Assembly (NCBI RefSeq): GCF_988243305.1
Contig: NZ_OZ547136.1
Length of the DNA: 64,000 bases
Strand: one strand, 5' to 3'
Both the position numbers and the translations under genes were made by a program. The notes below the pieces were generated by a model. It saw nothing but the letters and a program-made list of their open reading frames with translations. It was not told the DNA's origin and did not search any database. Positions 53,576 through 59,339 of the stretch are shown piece by piece (the first letter of the stretch is position 1; each line of letters starts with the position of its first letter).

Positions 53576-56050
53576 TTAAAAATCAGCCTGATTCGGGATC
53601 AGTTTTTGCCAGATAGTTGAAACGTATTTTGCCTGGTAACGGGCATCATCCAGCGCATTGTGGCGCTCACCTTCGAATGGAATAGCCGCCCTGGCATCGA
53701 AGTCCATGGCTTTTCCCAGCTCAACGATTGTGCGTACATCGCGATCGTTGTAGTAACGCCACGGGCAGGGGATCCCCTGCCGTTCGTATGAACGGCGCAA
53801 AATCGTGTTGTCGAAGTTGGCTCCATTTCCCCAGACCTGAACAAAAAATTCGCCGGAGTTTTCGTCGATAAATTCCCGCAATTGCAGCAGTGCATCATCT
53901 AACGGGATTTCATCGGTCAGAATGGCAGATTGCGCCTCCCGTGATTGCTTAAGCCACCATTTAATGGTGCCACGATCAATGACTCCGCCAGCAGTATCCA
54001 TATCGATGGTCTTACTAAATTCCGGCCCCATATCTCCGGTTTGCGGATCGAAAAATATTGCACCTATTGAGATAAGCGGGGCATCGGGATTTTTTCCCAT
54101 GGTTTCAAGGTCGATCATCATGTGGTGCCACATTCTGCTGGTGGATGTGATTTCTTGATGACCGTTCACCTTAATTGAGTGATCTGCCGTCTCGCCAGTT
54201 TCATTATCGCTATCGTGATGCTGATTGCCGCCAGTGTTCTCCTTGTGTGGATGTTCAGCGCCTTCCATTTCCTCTGGATCATCTTCCTGAACTTCAGGCT
54301 GATACTCTTCATCGAATGTTTCCTGGTATGTTGCGTCGCCCATTACCGCGCCACAATCAGGGCAGTTGCCGCCGCCGGTCTGACCGCAGGCGGTGCAGAC
54401 TTTTTCCACTTCCTGTTGCGCCACTGATTCAGGCTGTTTCGTTTCTGGCTCGTTTTGTAACGCATTTGGGCTGTTTTGTTCCGCTTTCTGGTCGTTCTGT
54501 TCCGTTTCTTGCTGGTTCTGGTTCACAGAATCGCGGGTCTGGTTCCCCTTAACCCATTTCGGATCATTCGGGTCGCTAATCCCTTCAACAAATTCACCAC
54601 GTGATACTGCAAGCAGTTCATCGGCGTCAGGCTGGCTGATATTGGCTGCCTGCATAATTTTGTTTACTTCGTCAGCGGTAACTTTTACTGGCTCTGGTTG
54701 TGCGGTCGTGTCAGATGCACCAGTATTTTGTTGTGAACCTGAGTATGTACCGTTTTTACGTGCGAAGTATTCCTCTTTTGTGATTTCCGTAGCTCCCAGG
54801 GCCAGTGCTTTTTCCAGACCAGAAAGTTTGTTTGCGCGACCGTATTTTTCGCCGTCCTTATCGGTGAAAAGGAAGTAGAACGGTCCCTCACGCTCTACAG
54901 ATGGTTCGTCTTCCACTTCGCATTCGGTTTTTTCGTTGTCCGGCATTGCCGTTTCCACTGCATCAGTTTCTGGTACTGGTGACGGGAGAGTACCAGCTGT
55001 GCCCTGATTTGTTCCTTCGTCATCTTCAAACACGCCCTTGGTAGTCAGGTATTCAGTGATGTATTTGTTCAGTGCTACGGGATCTTTGTGAATGTCGATC
55101 GGACGCTCACGGACAAGGCCAAAAATAGTCTGACGGTCGTAGCGAACGGCATCGGGTTGTTTGCGCATTGATGCGGAAATGCGCTTCCAGTCTTCGCGAT
55201 CTTTGTCGATAACTTCATTTTTTGCCCAGCGATGGATGCTGCCGTCAATGTTTCCGGTATCAATATCGCCAGGCCAGAGAGCGTAGGCCAGTTCTTCATC
55301 CAGCGTTTTCCATGTCTGCTTGTATTCGCGACAAATGGCGGCAGTGACTGGGTTGATTTTTCCTGCTGAGTTTTCAGTGTTCTGTTGATTGACTCTGGCG
55401 CGGGCGAGATCAACAACAGACGTGTATTTTCCGGTTTCCTTGCGTTCACCTTCGCGACGTTTTTTCCAGATGCGCATCTCTGCCTGAATTTCGGGCCATT
55501 TGGCACCAGGCTTACATTTATGCTTAACCCACCCGATGGCATGCAGCTTAAGCTCCGGATACATGGCGTTAACTTCTGGCATTTTCATCAACGCTTCAAC
55601 GATATGTCCGTCGAATGTTGCCATGTCTTCCTGCAACAATTCCTGTGCGCTAATAACCATATCAACGGTGATGTTTTCACATGTGTCGAACTTAACCATG
55701 ACAGCGTTCTGTACTTCAGGGGCCAGCTTGTCAAAAGTGACGTTCATCGGATCGGATTCAGTCTCAACCGGGACAAAGGAAGCAGACTCCTCATCCCAGC
55801 GGTTTTCCTGCATATATTCAGCATCCCAGGAATCGAGGGCAGGGCGGGGTATACCGGGTTTATCCTCGCAGACAAGAAATTTATAAGCGCAGTCCTGAGC
55901 AGCCGGATAATGCTCCAGGAATTGCCAGTGAAATTTTGCGCGGGCGCGACGTTCATCACCGGCTTCAATGGCAGTGGCTACAGCGACGGCACCTTCTTCC
56001 TTTATTGCCTGTTCGTCCGGAATGGCGGCGCAAATAAAGACTTTACTCAT
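53576..56050 (-). CDS. large prophage exonuclease: RecE/exonuclease VIII-like positional homolog with C-terminal DnaQ-like (DEDDh) 3'-5' exonuclease motifs and an internal CxxC-x8-CxxC zinc ribbon
   Basis: 824-aa ORF; C-terminal motifs MIDLETMG (Exo I), WGNGANFD (Exo II), HNALDDARYQA (Exo III); Cys pair CTACGQTGGGNCPDCG; acidic low-complexity linker; positioned between dicB and xis like lambdoid exo genes. Confidence 0.7.
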   Translation of the reverse strand: MSKVFICAAIPDEQAIKEEGAVAVATAIEAGDERRARAKFHWQFLEHYPAAQDCAYKFLVCEDKPGIPRPALDSWDAEYMQENRWDEESASFVPVETESDPMNVTFDKLAPEVQNAVMVKFDTCENITVDMVISAQELLQEDMATFDGHIVEALMKMPEVNAMYPELKLHAIGWVKHKCKPGAKWPEIQAEMRIWKKRREGERKETGKYTSVVDLARARVNQQNTENSAGKINPVTAAICREYKQTWKTLDEELAYALWPGDIDTGNIDGSIHRWAKNEVIDKDREDWKRISASMRKQPDAVRYDRQTIFGLVRERPIDIHKDPVALNKYITEYLTTKGVFEDDEGTNQGTAGTLPSPVPETDAVETAMPDNEKTECEVEDEPSVEREGPFYFLFTDKDGEKYGRANKLSGLEKALALGATEITKEEYFARKNGTYSGSQQNTGASDTTAQPEPVKVTADEVNKIMQAANISQPDADELLAVSRGEFVEGISDPNDPKWVKGNQTRDSVNQNQQETEQNDQKAEQNSPNALQNEPETKQPESVAQQEVEKVCTACGQTGGGNCPDCGAVMGDATYQETFDEEYQPEVQEDDPEEMEGAEHPHKENTGGNQHHDSDNETGETADHSIKVNGHQEITSTSRMWHHMMIDLETMGKNPDAPLISIGAIFFDPQTGDMGPEFSKTIDMDTAGGVIDRGTIKWWLKQSREAQSAILTDEIPLDDALLQLREFIDENSGEFFVQVWGNGANFDNTILRRSYERQGIPCPWRYYNDRDVRTIVELGKAMDFDARAAIPFEGERHNALDDARYQAKYVSTIWQKLIPNQADF

Positions 56051-56222: not shown

Positions 56223-56411
56223 TCATTGCCAGCATCCTTTTTGTATCGGACGTAAACGGGCCAGCATTGAAAGAATGCATATTTTATTTAATAGCTCCCG
56301 TTCGTGTTTTCTCTTGTTAATGGCATCTTCAGTAAATACAGGGTTACTGATAGTGACACCAATTTCAAAACAACCTTCAGACGTATTAACGTTTGGTAAT
56401 AACGTTTCCAT
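56223..56411 (-). CDS. dicB: cell division inhibitor DicB
   Basis: 62-aa ORF METLLPNVNTSEGCFEIGVTISNPVFTEDAINKRK... from ATG 56411 (GAGG SD upstream) inside track ORF 56223-56516; lies about 170 nt downstream of DicF as in the dicB operon. Confidence 0.75.
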   Translation of the reverse strand: METLLPNVNTSEGCFEIGVTISNPVFTEDAINKRKHERELLNKICILSMLARLRPIQKGCWQ

Positions 56412-56585
56412 TATCGCGTCCTCAACAATGAATTTTGTGATGCGGTGCCTGGTGCCTCCAGGTGACGTTAACCAGTTAACAATTAACGCCGGATACAGAG
56501 AATCCACCCATAACACTGTTTTTGGTTTTAACTGTTCCGCGTGCGCTCAGCCGCATTCACCACATCACAAAATTCACTTTAAAAA

Positions 56586-56638
56586 GGGCGGCAGAGCAGT
56601 CACGGAGTAAAACTGATACCGCCAAACGTCACCAGAAA
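56586..56638 (-). ncRNA. dicF: DicF small regulatory RNA (ftsZ-targeting)
   Basis: Reverse complement reads TTTCTGGTGACGTTTGGCGGTATCAGTTTTACTCCGTGACTGCTCTGCCGCCC followed by a T-run; matches the 53-nt DicF sequence as recalled, with its 3' terminator hairpin. Confidence 0.75.
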
Positions 56639-56977
56639 ATTGATAACAGAGGGCGTTGCAGCGGGGTTGTCACTTAAGCGTATGGTCAACCTGACAACCC
56701 GGTGTCCTCAACGGGGGAAGGAATAACCCCGCCATACTTACCGCCGCGCCATTTCGCGGATTGCCACAACCGGAAGCGCACGGTCGACGAAAATTTAACG
56801 ACAGGCTATCTATGAACCAGCTACCTCGCCGTGCGCTTTCGCGTTATGGTCTGACTTTTCAGGGAAATATCCTTTCAGTAAACTGTCAGTGCCGGATTCT
56901 TATCCGTGTCCGGCGCACGACCACACGCTGTCACGAGAGGTCTCCATTCTCAACCAGTAACCTCAATGGAGGATAAA

Positions 56978-57172
56978 ATGTCAGAGCAGGAGTTAAAACT
57001 TGGTGCATGTTATTGTGTTCTCAAGGAGCTGGTACACATGCTTCCATCTACTCAGTATCAACAGTTAGTTGGCAATTTAAATCAGCGAATCGAAGCTATG
57101 TTAAAATCTGATGGTTTTAATAACGTAGAAACGCTGATGCTAAAAAGATATCTTGATGGATTAATCAGATAA
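56978..57172 (+). CDS. hypothetical small protein (64 aa) encoded convergently within the early-left region
   Basis: ATG at 56978 preceded by a strong SD (TGGAGGATAAAATG); MSEQELKLGACYCVLKELVHMLPSTQYQQLVGNLNQRIEAMLK...; inside track ORF 56906-57172; no competing minus-strand ORF over 25 aa in this interval. Confidence 0.5.
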   Translation: MSEQELKLGACYCVLKELVHMLPSTQYQQLVGNLNQRIEAMLKSDGFNNVETLMLKRYLDGLIR

Positions 57173-57499
57173 CATTTTTTTACGGCGTTCATATTCGTTA
57201 ATATTTATGAAGCCTGTTGCCAGAAGCAGTTCGTTAATTTCATGGTTGTTTGGCTGTTTCTGGCTCTTTGAGCTGGGATCTTCCACTTCTTTTTCTGCAA
57301 ATTGTTTTGCTGTATCCTCTGTGCCATGGATATTTAAAGCTGTATCTGAAAACAGCCCAGTAAACGCATCGCGCACATTACGAGCCATATTATCAGTGTC
57401 TTTTTTTGTTACCGATTCCAATTCAAGTTCGTTCAGACGATGACGAAGTGTGTGTGCTGCAATCTCCTGGATTGAAGGAGGTAAATCTTTAAATTCCAT
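57161..57499 (-). CDS. hypothetical early-left protein (112 aa)
   Basis: Track ORF 57161-57511; start placed at second ATG 57499 (MEFKDLPPSIQEIAAHTL...) which has a GAGG SD; 3' end overlaps the convergent plus-strand ORF by 12 nt. Confidence 0.55.
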   Translation of the reverse strand: MEFKDLPPSIQEIAAHTLRHRLNELELESVTKKDTDNMARNVRDAFTGLFSDTALNIHGTEDTAKQFAEKEVEDPSSKSQKQPNNHEINELLLATGFININEYERRKKMLSD

Positions 57500-57510
57500 C
57501 GTCAACCTCA

Positions 57511-57744
57511 TCAGTCAGTGTTTCTTGCTAACCAGCGATGCGCGCCAGCTGCGGTTTTAAACGTTTTACTTTTGGTATACGTCATCGCGGTGAAGGTGCC
57601 GTCCTGGTTAGGGAACACACCGCATACCAGAGATTCGTTGTTGCCAAGATCGATAGTATCCATGCTGACCTCATTTCCCCTTAACGCCGGGGTAGCGGAA
57701 CAAAAACCTGCTGCATAGTTATTAAAGTTGAACCCTGCCGTCAT
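57511..57744 (-). CDS. hypothetical early-left small protein (possibly YdfB-like); start ambiguous (57744 or internal ATG 57663)
   Basis: Track ORF of 77 aa; both ATG 57744 and ATG 57663 (MDTIDLGNNESLVCGVFPNQDGTF...) have GAGG SD sequences upstream; first gene downstream of the OL-type operator. Confidence 0.55.
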   Translation of the reverse strand: MTAGFNFNNYAAGFCSATPALRGNEVSMDTIDLGNNESLVCGVFPNQDGTFTAMTYTKSKTFKTAAGAHRWLARNTD

Positions 57745-57846
57745 GTTCTTACGCCTCGGGCTGGCTACTTACCCCCTGACCACTGCTTGGTAACTCGAAG
57801 TATTGCCCGGCGTTCTGTGGGGCGGGGTGGGTTGGTATGTTGTTAA

Positions 57847-58701: not shown

Positions 58702-58917
58702 ATGTTCAAAGATGATGTTCTGCGCTATTTCAAAAAAAAGCGACTAGTAGCTGAGGCTCTTGGAATTTCACATGTGGCTGTTGTGCGGTGGAAAGCAGTT
58801 ATTCCCAAACTTCGCGCAATGGAACTGGATGAAATTACTAACGGTGAATTGAAATACAACCCAGAACTTTACAAGAAGCAGGATAGCACCTCAAACGAAG
58901 GAAAGAATGATTCATGA
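58702..58917 (+). CDS. Cro-like/YdaS-family HTH DNA-binding protein
   Basis: 71-aa ORF with SD AGGAGAG; HTH segment LVAEALGISHVAVVRW; divergent from the repressor gene. Confidence 0.7.
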   Translation: MFKDDVLRYFKKKRLVAEALGISHVAVVRWKAVIPKLRAMELDEITNGELKYNPELYKKQDSTSNEGKNDS

Positions 58918-59339
58918 AAATCAAGCATGAACACATCCGCATGGCGATGAATGTCTGGGCGCATCCGGACGGCGAAAAAGTGCCGGCTGCGAAAATTACC
59001 AAAGCGTATTTCGAGCTGGGAATGACGTTCCCGGAACTGTATGACGACAGCCATCCGGAAGCCCTGGCCCGTAATACCCAGAAAATTTTCCGTTGGCTGG
59101 ATAAAGACACCCCTGATGCTGTTGAAAAAATGCAGGCTCTGTTACCGGCGATCGAAAAGGCGATGCCGCCTTTGCTGGTGGCCCGTATGCGCAGCCACAG
59201 TTCTGAATATTACCGTGAGATCGTCGAACGGAGGGATCGGCTGGTGAAGGATGTCGATGATTTTGTTGCGTCAGCGGTTGTTTTGTATGACCAGATGAAT
59301 CGCGGCGGCCCGGCAGGGAATGCTGTGGTGATGCACTAA
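58914..59339 (+). CDS. CII-like/YdaT-family prophage regulator
   Basis: 141-aa ORF overlapping the cro-like stop; size and position match the YdaT family that follows ydaS in Rac-type prophages. Confidence 0.55.
   Translation: MKIKHEHIRMAMNVWAHPDGEKVPAAKITKAYFELGMTFPELYDDSHPEALARNTQKIFRWLDKDTPDAVEKMQALLPAIEKAMPPLLVARMRSHSSEYYREIVERRDRLVKDVDDFVASAVVLYDQMNRGGPAGNAVVMH

What the first reader, a model, noticed from the sequence alone, without database searches (positions are those of the whole stretch)
56978..57499. Convergent, 3'-overlapping small gene pair inside the early-left operon
A 64-aa plus-strand ORF with a near-ideal SD (GGAGG, ATG at 56978) runs against the direction of the surrounding early-left transcription unit. 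Its stop (57170-57172) overlaps by 12 nt the 3' end of a 112-aa minus-strand ORF (stop 57161-57163) that also has a good SD. Neither product matches anything I can name. The geometry would give mutual antisense transcripts over the overlap, as in cis-antisense regulated toxin/antitoxin or exclusion modules. This is my top candidate for an uncharacterised two-gene module.
Basis: seen in the sequence. Interest (0 to 1): 0.6.

Follow-up and report, generated by a model that had tools for sequence, protein, structure and literature searches.

The report
Conserved opposite-strand prophage small-gene cassette
A real, conserved 64-amino-acid gene sits backwards inside the early (dicBF) operon of an E. 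coli prophage, with its own structured leader and always beside the same short tail of the gene it faces. Its function is untested, but it distantly resembles the stress-regulator protein IraP.

Summary
A 64-aa plus-strand ORF (56978-57172) and a 112-aa minus-strand ORF (57161-57499) converge and overlap by 12 nt, between ydfA-like and dicF/dicB genes of a Qin-type prophage beside ompW in O104:H4-like E. coli.

Both are real genes. The plus frame is kept in Escherichia, Salmonella, Citrobacter and two distant lineages (dN/dS 0.12-0.31); the partner has dN/dS 0.3-0.4, so RefSeq's pseudogene call looks wrong.

The conserved unit has three parts:
- a ~90-nt leader of three hairpins, the last pairing CUCCAU with the Shine-Dalgarno sequence;
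- the small ORF;
- only the last ~28 residues of the partner, a two-helix tail fused to three unrelated N-terminal domains in different prophages.

K-12 Qin keeps a leader remnant where ydfB/ydfC replace the cassette.

The 64-aa protein is a soluble three-helix protein with weak but consistent similarity to residues ~19-82 of the RssB anti-adaptor IraP. It is below family thresholds and lacks IraP's N-terminal coiled coil.

Nothing supports a toxin-antitoxin or defence system. My best reading is an independently expressed, translationally gated small protein-binding factor, silenced by convergent early-left transcription. Its target is unknown: the partner tail or RssB. Function is inferred, not shown.

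The parts
56856..56884 (+). Weak sigma-70-like promoter candidate, TTTTCA-17 nt-TAAACT, ending 6 nt before the first base of the leader
   Evidence: Read by eye. It matches 8 of 12 positions, so the scan did not list it. TA-rich -10-like hexamers lie 6 nt before hairpin P1 in 5 of 6 lineages although the upstream sequence is otherwise non-homologous. In L008 the scan lists TTAATA-17-TAAAAT at that position. Inferred, not shown.
56891..56914 (+). Leader hairpin P1 (GCCGGA-12 nt-UCCGGC). Stem and 3' flank (GTGTCCGGCGCAC) are invariant; the loop varies. It could equally be a DNA palindrome or operator.
   Evidence: Alignment A6 and consensus fold. Also present in K-12 Qin and E. albertii prophages that lack the plus gene.
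56920..56941 (+). Leader hairpin P2, variable in sequence but kept as a hairpin
   Evidence: 5 of 8 pairs show compensatory double changes, e.g. ACACG/CGUGU, CUCCAU/AUGGAG, CCCAAC/GUUGGG. It is partly degenerate in the window copy.
56942..56972 (+). Leader hairpin P3: anti-SD CUCCAU (56942-56947) pairs with AUGGAG (56966-56971), covering the GGAGG Shine-Dalgarno (56968-56972)
   Evidence: 100% of cells paired in six lineages. P3 is the minimum-free-energy fold in L007, L009 and L013. In the window's fold the SD is paired with the adjacent CCUC instead.
56978..57172 (+). 64-aa gene (WP_001295058.1, phrog_4987): soluble three-helix protein, remote IraP-like
   Evidence: dN/dS 0.12-0.31; AlphaFold2 pLDDT 78.6, helices 3-21/24-44/49-63; IraP similarity.
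57161..57172 (.). 12-nt 3' overlap of the two coding regions
   Evidence: Variable: 33 nt in 4 of 25 E. coli-type copies and in Salmonella, 4 nt in L009, 11 nt in L013.
57164..57247 (-). Partner C-terminal tail (residues 85-112, ...INELLLATGFININEYERRKKMLSD): a two-helix unit co-inherited with the plus gene
   Evidence: The motif LLLxxGxIxxxEY ends partners that have three unrelated N-domains. Conservation is at protein level (Ser coded TCA vs AGC; tail dN/dS 0.17-0.43). AlphaFold2 places helices 85-94 and 100-111 after a low-confidence linker at 73-80.
57248..57499 (-). Partner N-terminal domain plus linker (residues 1-84). It is shared with many prophage and Stx-phage proteins that carry other C-termini.
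   Evidence: phrog_2151/1363/9419/6937/33007 match only residues 1 to about 105 or fewer. Homologues have alternative C-termini. Sequenced phages hold only residues 1-51.
57511..57663 (-). Flank: ydfA-like DUF1391 gene, the first gene of the early-left/dicBF operon
56586..56637 (-). Flank: DicF sRNA. It lies downstream in the same minus-strand operon, so operon transcripts must cross the cassette antisense.
   Evidence: Rfam RF00039, 76.7 bits. Operon structure from PMC5069750.

Best explanation
SHOWN. The locus is a conserved, self-contained small-gene cassette embedded backwards in the DicA-repressed early-left (dicBF) operon of a Qin-type lambdoid prophage. It has three parts: a ~90-nt three-hairpin 5' leader, a 64-aa ORF under purifying selection, and the C-terminal two-helix tail of the convergent early-left protein, which travels with the ORF.

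INFERRED MECHANISM. (1) The small gene is transcribed from its own weak promoter, starting at the first leader hairpin, while the prophage is repressed. (2) Its translation is gated, because the Shine-Dalgarno sequence is sequestered by the conserved anti-SD arm. (3) When the early-left promoter fires, transcripts heading for dicF and dicB run antisense across the whole small mRNA and shut it off by collision or duplex formation. (4) The product is a soluble three-helix protein distantly related to the anti-adaptor IraP. It acts as a stoichiometric protein binder. The best candidate target is the co-inherited helical tail of the facing protein, which would keep that early protein inactive in the lysogen. 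Host RssB is the alternative target.
For: Both genes are real: plus gene dN/dS 0.12-0.31 with a third-position bias; partner 0.32-0.42. Gene-tail linkage was found in E. coli, two Salmonella variants, a metagenome contig, and the P0128 and P0129 lineages (36-45% identity). The partner N-domains in these belong to three unrelated PHROG groups, one of them an HTH regulator. The tail and the plus gene are both absent from 50,697 phage records, although the partner's N-domain is present there. AlphaFold2 shows the tail as a separate helix-turn-helix unit on a low-confidence linker. Leader: 89.9% of cells paired against 28-42% in slid controls; 5 compensatory pairs in P2; at most 2 of 500 shuffles reach any observed measure. 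The anti-SD and SD are invariant. The same leader drives an unrelated 69-aa ORF (phrog_4274) in Salmonella, which marks it as a plus-strand expression element. Antisense read-through is required by operon order. IraP similarity: Pfam PF10796 is the top hit, with 5 of 6 members at E<=0.1 and the best at 5e-5. hhalign P improves from 0.0035 to 0.0007 when divergent members are added, with the register unchanged to within one residue. My own IraP HMM places all six in one register, with 0-24 of 3000 shuffles scoring as high.
Against: There are no expression data. The window's promoter candidate is weak (8 of 12) and no intrinsic terminator was found. P1 and P3 never vary, so they give no covariation evidence. 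P1 also persists in prophages without the plus gene and could act as DNA or on the other strand. Gene-tail linkage could partly reflect physical adjacency. Citrobacter keeps an intact plus gene with the partner deleted to a stub, so the gene can persist without the tail. No interaction was modelled. The IraP similarity is below every curated threshold, and fold searches were non-specific.
Confidence: 0.4

Rival explanations
1. The 64-aa protein is a functional prophage-borne IraP-type anti-adaptor. It binds host RssB, blocks delivery of RpoS to ClpXP, and raises the general stress response in lysogens. The facing gene is only a neighbour.
For: Consistent weak profile similarity to IraP residues ~19-82, in one register for all six family members. 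NCBI names the Citrobacter homologue IraP. Citrobacter keeps the gene without the partner. Horizontally acquired elements are already known to feed into RpoS stabilisation through anti-adaptors, e.g. prophage-encoded AppY and the anti-adaptor IraL (papers listed).
Against: Scores are far below family cut-offs: Pfam 14.3 bits for the window protein; no NCBIfam hit at E<=1 against a 78-bit cut-off. Pairwise BLASTP finds nothing. The protein lacks IraP residues 1-18. That is half of the predicted coiled coil (residues 1-35) proposed as the RssB contact, and it includes L9, whose mutation impairs IraP (PMC4428439). The higher Citrobacter score depends on an upstream extension that is frameshifted in E. 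coli and closed by a stop in Salmonella. This reading does not explain the linkage to the tail.
Confidence: 0.2
2. The main product is RNA. The plus transcript acts as a cis-antisense brake, or a transcriptional-interference device, that limits leaky read-through from the early-left promoter into the toxic dicF, dicB and ydfD genes. The ORF is secondary.
For: The geometry fits: the cassette lies between the promoter-proximal genes and dicF/dicB, and operon transcripts must cross it. The dicBF operon is highly toxic when expressed and is processed by RNase III and RNase E (PMC5069750). The leader is more conserved than the coding sequence in distant lineages.
Against: The ORF is under clear protein-level purifying selection with conserved start, SD and stop. 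An anti-SD hairpin makes sense only for a translated mRNA. L009 and L013 carry the cassette but have no DicF match at Rfam's gathering score.
Confidence: 0.15
3. One reading: a cis-antisense-regulated toxin-antitoxin, abortive-infection or superinfection-exclusion pair. One protein is toxic or defensive and the other, or its antisense RNA, neutralises it.
For: A conserved two-component linkage with convergent overlap. One partner variant carries an Xre-type HTH domain, as many antitoxins do. Early-left regions of lambdoid phages are rich in host-toxic and exclusion genes (established knowledge; for dicB and dicF).
Against: No meaningful PADLOC hit; the only listing is a chance-level AbiEi match on the ydfA-like flank, E 0.046. 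No NCBIfam hit. Both proteins are hydrophilic and predicted to be simple helical proteins. The gene order is not that of a type II operon. Only a 28-residue tail is linked, which is an unlikely toxin. Overlap length drifts freely.
Confidence: 0.1
4. Nothing functional is here. The plus ORF is a chance or decaying ORF and the minus ORF is a truncated pseudogene, as RefSeq labels it, so the overlap is an accident of decay.
For: RefSeq marks the partner 'incomplete, missing C-terminus'. The cassette is in only 151 of 5426 complete E. coli genomes and in no sequenced phage. K-12 has lost it.
Against: dN/dS is well below 1 for both genes, including the partner's C-terminus. Start, SD and stop are conserved across genera and down to 36% protein identity. 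The leader shows compensatory changes.
Confidence: 0.03

Closest known systems
IraP (anti-adaptor of RssB; Pfam PF10796, NCBIfam NF007598)
   Same: A small, acidic-to-neutral, all-helical cytoplasmic protein. Gapless profile alignment of family residues ~13-64 to IraP residues ~31-82, sharing the C-terminal pattern D/E-x-x-x-L-x-x-Y-(V/L/I)-x-x-L-(L/I).
   Different: 64 aa rather than 86 aa. It lacks IraP's first ~18 residues, and so half of the coiled coil, including L9. It is below all family thresholds. It is prophage-borne inside an early operon rather than next to phoA. It has a structured SD-sequestering leader. RssB binding is untested.
sieB of lambda, P22 and Rac: an accessory gene inside the early-left region expressed from its own promoter in the lysogen (from my own knowledge, not tested here)
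   Same: An independently transcribed accessory gene embedded in the early-left operon of a lambdoid prophage. It has a lower G+C content than the window average (0.36 vs 0.49).
   Different: There is no sequence relationship. SieB is a ~190-aa membrane protein, whereas this is a 64-aa soluble protein. The conserved leader and the linked partner tail have no counterpart that I know of.
ydfB-ydfC segment of the K-12 Qin dicBF operon
   Same: It occupies exactly the same slot. Window 56920-57519 replaces K-12 ydfB and ydfC between ydfA and the dicF spacer.
   Different: ydfB and ydfC are co-directional with the operon and unrelated in sequence. K-12 keeps only P1, P2 and the anti-SD half of P3 of the leader, as a remnant.
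Pore-forming colicin operons with a convergently transcribed, variant-specific immunity gene (from my own knowledge; analogy only)
   Same: A conserved N-terminal region plus a swappable C-terminal region, each C-terminal variant facing its own small opposite-strand gene. In Salmonella the 64-aa gene faces the tail variant, and a 69-aa gene faces a different C-terminal variant of the same N-domain.
   Different: No homology. The small proteins are soluble, not membrane immunity proteins. No toxicity has been shown for any partner.

Membership tests
IraP anti-adaptor family (PF10796 / NF007598) | Scores above the curated family threshold | tested here: not met
   Window protein: Pfam 14.3 bits, E 0.065; no NCBIfam hit at E<=1. 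The best relative, the 103-aa Citrobacter call, scores 26.8 bits against a 78-bit cut-off and 23.8 bits in Pfam.
IraP anti-adaptor family (PF10796 / NF007598) | Detectable homology over the conserved C-terminal two-thirds | tested here: inconclusive
   hhalign P=0.0007, probability 27%. 5 of 6 members at E<=0.1 in Pfam. All six in one register; 0-24 of 3000 shuffles score as high. Pairwise BLASTP negative.
IraP anti-adaptor family (PF10796 / NF007598) | N-terminal coiled coil (residues 1-35, including L9) implicated in RssB inhibition | tested here: not met
   The alignment starts at IraP residue ~19-40. The upstream in-frame sequence is not conserved as coding. Role of the N-terminus from PMC4428439.
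IraP anti-adaptor family (PF10796 / NF007598) | Binds RssB and stabilises RpoS | not testable with these tools
   Needs an RpoS half-life assay and an RssB pull-down.
Toxin-antitoxin or anti-phage defence system | Homology to a known toxin, antitoxin or defence protein | tested here: not met
   PADLOC gave no hit for either protein. NCBIfam gave none. The PHROG families are all 'unknown function'.
Toxin-antitoxin or anti-phage defence system | Type I: small hydrophobic toxin; type II: co-directional two-gene operon | tested here: not met
   GRAVY -0.14 and -0.88. AlphaFold2 predicts soluble helical proteins. The genes are convergent.
Toxin-antitoxin or anti-phage defence system | Toxicity of one component, neutralised by the other | not testable with these tools
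   Needs cloning and induction.
Moron-type, independently expressed prophage accessory gene | Sits within a phage operon but is oriented or transcribed independently | tested here: met
   It is the only plus-strand gene between the repressor and the exonuclease. The same orientation is seen in all lineages.
Moron-type, independently expressed prophage accessory gene | Own promoter and terminator | tested here: inconclusive
   The window has only a weak 8-of-12 promoter candidate and no terminator. -10-like hexamers are conserved in position. The scan finds a promoter-like and a terminator-like site in L008, but no promoter-like site at the leader and no terminator-like site in L009 or L013.
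Moron-type, independently expressed prophage accessory gene | Base composition unlike the surrounding phage genes | tested here: inconclusive
   G+C is 0.36 against a window mean of 0.49, but the neighbouring dicB and ydfD genes are also 0.38.
SHOCT domain (PF09851), for the partner's tail; a resemblance recalled from memory | Pfam match | tested here: not met
   No SHOCT hit at E<=10 for the 112-aa or the 186-aa partner. Only the two-helix C-terminal architecture agrees.

The most novel reading that the evidence does not exclude
The cassette is a new kind of prophage switch. A truncated IraP relative, made only while the prophage is repressed and gated by an SD-sequestering leader, binds a portable two-helix docking tail that recombination has fused onto different early-left proteins. 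It may also bind RssB. This would couple the prophage's induction state to the activity of early proteins and perhaps to host RpoS stability. The shared leader would define a family of opposite-strand small-gene cassettes, including at least the 64-aa phrog_4987 and 69-aa phrog_4274 genes.
Probability: 0.12. Interest if true: 0.75.

Novelty: new variant of a known kind. Interest (0 to 1): 0.5.

Why it matters
The cassette lies inside the dicBF operon, a much-studied source of host-toxic prophage products (DicF, DicB). It occurs in clinically important strains: O104:H4 outbreak isolates, ST131 and ATCC 25922. If the 64-aa protein is an IraP-like binder, it would be the first prophage-encoded relative of that anti-adaptor, and a new route by which prophages could tune RpoS or their own early proteins. 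The conserved SD-sequestering leader, reused by two unrelated small ORFs, is an uncatalogued RNA element with no Rfam match. The tail fused to three unrelated proteins is a clear case of a domain co-travelling with a facing gene. The work also corrects an annotation: the partner is a selected gene, not a pseudogene. All of it can be tested with simple genetics.

Tried and rejected
- **Sequenced phages:** tblastn of the 64-aa protein against 50,697 records found nothing.
- **Family libraries:** NCBIfam and PADLOC gave nothing for either protein.
- **Pairwise BLASTP against K-12 IraP:** nothing.
- **Representative-protein search (1.84 billion sequences):** only two distant relatives, P0128 and P0129. 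IraP did not reach E<=0.001 at that database size.
- **Fold searches:** the 64-aa model against AFDB50 and PDB, and the partner model against PDB, returned only generic helical bundles with E>=0.4. A profile search against PDB sequences gave nothing meaningful.
- **Rfam:** only DicF at gathering threshold, and no match to the leader or cassette at E<=5.
- **Promoter and terminator scan of the window:** nothing at the cassette.
- **Genome-contig scans:** the peptide scan found no relatives.
- **Longer ancestral IraP-like N-terminus:** the 103-aa Citrobacter call raises the IraP score. I rejected it because the upstream frame is closed by a stop in Salmonella and shifted in E. coli.
- **SHOCT identity for the tail:** not confirmed by Pfam.
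- **Literature:** nothing on WP_001295058 or on IraP-like prophage proteins.

Full report
**Context**

Window 56700-57760 is 100% identical to a prophage of E. coli O104:H4 and related strains. In strain 2011C-3493 the prophage lies beside ompW. RefSeq lists, all on one strand: integrase, excisionase, exonuclease, ydfD, dicB, then a DUF1391 (ydfA-like) gene and an HTH repressor. On the other strand come cro-like, YdaT-like and replication genes. Rfam places DicF at 56586-56637 on the minus strand. [quoted passage not shown]

**Observation**

- The plus ORF is 56978-57172, 64 aa, with GGAGG 5 nt upstream of the ATG.
- The minus ORF is 57161-57499, 112 aa, with GAGG 6 nt upstream.
- The overlap is 12 nt.

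RefSeq calls the plus ORF hypothetical protein WP_001295058.1. It annotates only the first 50 codons of the minus ORF, as a pseudogene 'missing C-terminus'.

**Is the plus gene real?**

It occurs in 151 of 5426 complete E. coli genomes, almost all at 99% identity or more. It belongs to phrog_4987, of unknown function. It is absent from sequenced phages.

Diverged copies exist in:
- Salmonella (86% aa identity), Citrobacter (72%) and a metagenome contig (84%);
- two distant lineages, P0128 (45%) and P0129 (36%).

In-frame dN/dS is 0.12-0.31, and 15-17 of 29-35 substitutions (or 11-13 of 19-22) fall at third positions. The other frames give 0.45-2.8, except the antisense frame that shares the wobble position, which is not open. 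The frame, the start context ATGGAGGATAAAATG and the stop are all kept.

**Is the partner real?**

Salmonella and metagenome partners align over their full length and end at the same ...KMLSD. dN/dS is 0.32-0.42 overall and 0.17-0.43 for the last 30 codons. The pseudogene label arises because the N-terminal ~50-70 residues are shared with longer proteins (phrog_2151 and others) that carry different C-termini.

**What is the conserved unit?**

Compared with K-12 Qin, window 56920-57519 replaces ydfB and ydfC exactly. Across lineages a minus-strand gene converges on the small gene and overlaps it by 4-33 nt, but the partner N-terminal domains are unrelated:
- a phrog_2151-type domain in E. coli and Salmonella;
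- a phrog_12693-type 74-aa protein in L009;
- an Xre-HTH 186-aa protein in L013.

Only the last ~25-30 residues are shared...LLLATGFININEYERRKKMLSD...LLLDAGLISMAEFTSKYGSI and ...LRLDIGMMSMAEYTSRHGTNFTD. The conservation is at protein level; for example, one Ser is coded TCA in one lineage and AGC in another.

AlphaFold2 models the partner as three helices, a low-confidence linker (residues 73-80), then a two-helix hairpin at 85-94 and 100-111.

In sequenced phages only partner residues 1-51 are found, never the tail. A further Salmonella tail-bearing variant again faces a 64-aa gene. Citrobacter is the exception: the plus gene is intact and the partner is deleted to a ~50-nt stub.

The overlap length itself is free to change. 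A TTA>TTG change, synonymous in the plus gene, removes the partner stop in 4 of 25 E. coli-type copies and extends the overlap to 33 nt.

**Leader**

About 90 nt upstream of the ATG are conserved even where the proteins share only 36-45% identity. The consensus fold has three hairpins:
- P1 (56891-56914): invariant stem, variable loop.
- P2 (56920-56941): 5 of 8 pairs show compensatory double changes.
- P3: CUCCAU (56942-56947) pairs with AUGGAG (56966-56971) and so covers the SD.

Overall 89.9% of cells are paired, against 28-42% when partners are slid. At most 2 of 500 shuffles reach any observed measure.

Single-sequence folds give P3 as the minimum-energy structure in three lineages. In the window's fold the SD pairs with the adjacent CCUC instead. 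Rfam has no match.

TA-rich -10-like hexamers lie 6 nt before P1 in five lineages, although the upstream sequence is otherwise non-homologous. The scan lists one of them, in L008. The window's candidate is weak and no terminator was found.

K-12 Qin and E. albertii keep P1, part or all of P2 and, in K-12, the anti-SD half of P3, but not the gene. So either they descend from a cassette-bearing ancestor, or P1 has a further role on DNA or on the other strand.

In Salmonella a second copy of the same leader drives an unrelated 69-aa ORF (phrog_4274). That ORF faces a paralogous partner with a different C-terminus. Citrobacter has that ORF too.

**The 64-aa protein**

AlphaFold2 predicts a three-helix bundle (pLDDT 78.6). 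The protein is hydrophilic. Fold searches are non-specific.

The only sequence lead is IraP.
- PF10796 is the top Pfam hit: E 0.065 for the window protein; 5 of 6 family members at E<=0.1; best 5e-5.
- hhalign against an IraP alignment gives P=0.0035, improving to 0.0007 when the divergent members are added, with the register unchanged to within one residue.
- An IraP HMM I built places all six members in one register (family residue n to IraP residue n+18). Only 0-24 of 3000 composition-matched shuffles score as high.

This remains below all curated thresholds, and pairwise BLASTP is negative. The family also lacks IraP residues 1-18. That is half of the predicted coiled coil proposed as the RssB contact, and it includes L9 (PMC4428439). 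I put true homology at roughly even odds and IraP-like function at about 0.2.

**Mechanism: what is shown and what is inferred**

Shown:
- both genes are under selection;
- the cassette architecture is conserved;
- a leader able to sequester the SD is conserved;
- the operon order forces antisense read-through.

Inferred:
- expression from an own promoter in the repressed prophage;
- translational gating by the leader;
- silencing by convergent early-left transcription;
- a protein-binding role, with the co-inherited tail or RssB as target.

Nothing supports a toxin-antitoxin or defence module.

**Verdict**

This is an uncharacterised, conserved cassette that is a new variant of known themes: independently expressed accessory genes in early-left operons, and small anti-adaptor-like proteins. 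Interest is moderate, and the hypotheses are cheap to test.

Noticed in passing
L004 6593-6897 (Salmonella); L007 290-499 (Citrobacter): A second, unrelated small plus-strand gene (69 aa, phrog_4274, unknown function). In Salmonella it uses a near-identical copy of the three-hairpin leader and abuts a 200-aa paralogue of the partner that has a different C-terminus. Citrobacter carries a homologue just upstream of the 64-aa gene. This suggests a family of leader-driven, opposite-strand small-gene cassettes.
   Followed up: partly
L002 (K-12 Qin) about 2043-2130, between ydfC and dicF; also L117 4914-4960 and L118 about 750-797 (E. albertii): Prophages without the plus gene still carry P1 and at least part of P2. 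K-12 also keeps the anti-SD half of P3, directly next to the ydfC stop. This is either a remnant of a lost cassette or a sign that the invariant GCCGGA-N12-TCCGGC palindrome has another role, such as an operator or a minus-strand RNA element.
   Followed up: partly
window 57349-57499 (RefSeq O3K_RS27635 in NC_018658.1): RefSeq labels the partner a pseudogene 'missing C-terminus'. Comparative data (full-length alignment, dN/dS 0.32-0.42) indicate an intact 112-aa gene with a mosaic C-terminus.
   Followed up: yes
window 56586-56637 (-) and 56223-56411 (-): DicF sRNA (Rfam, 76.7 bits) and DicB. The ~340-nt spacer between dicF and the cassette is 96.8% identical to K-12, and parts of it recur in L013, which has no DicF match. 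It is a conserved non-coding stretch of unknown role.
   Followed up: partly
L004 2923-4437 (Salmonella locus): Three tandem repeats of C4 antisense RNA plus isrK next to Phage_ASH genes. This places that copy of the cassette in a Gifsy-like early-left region.
   Followed up: no
window 53576-56050 versus L001 2772-5243: The exonuclease ORF listed in the window does not map onto the RefSeq exonuclease coordinates of the otherwise identical O104:H4 locus using the offset valid for 56223-57760; the difference is about 105 nt. There may be an indel, or the window may come from another strain.
   Followed up: no
window 58702-59339 (+): A cro-like HTH gene followed by a YdaT-family ('toxin YdaT') gene just right of the repressor, as annotated in the matching RefSeq locus. 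The locus also carries hokD further right.
   Followed up: no
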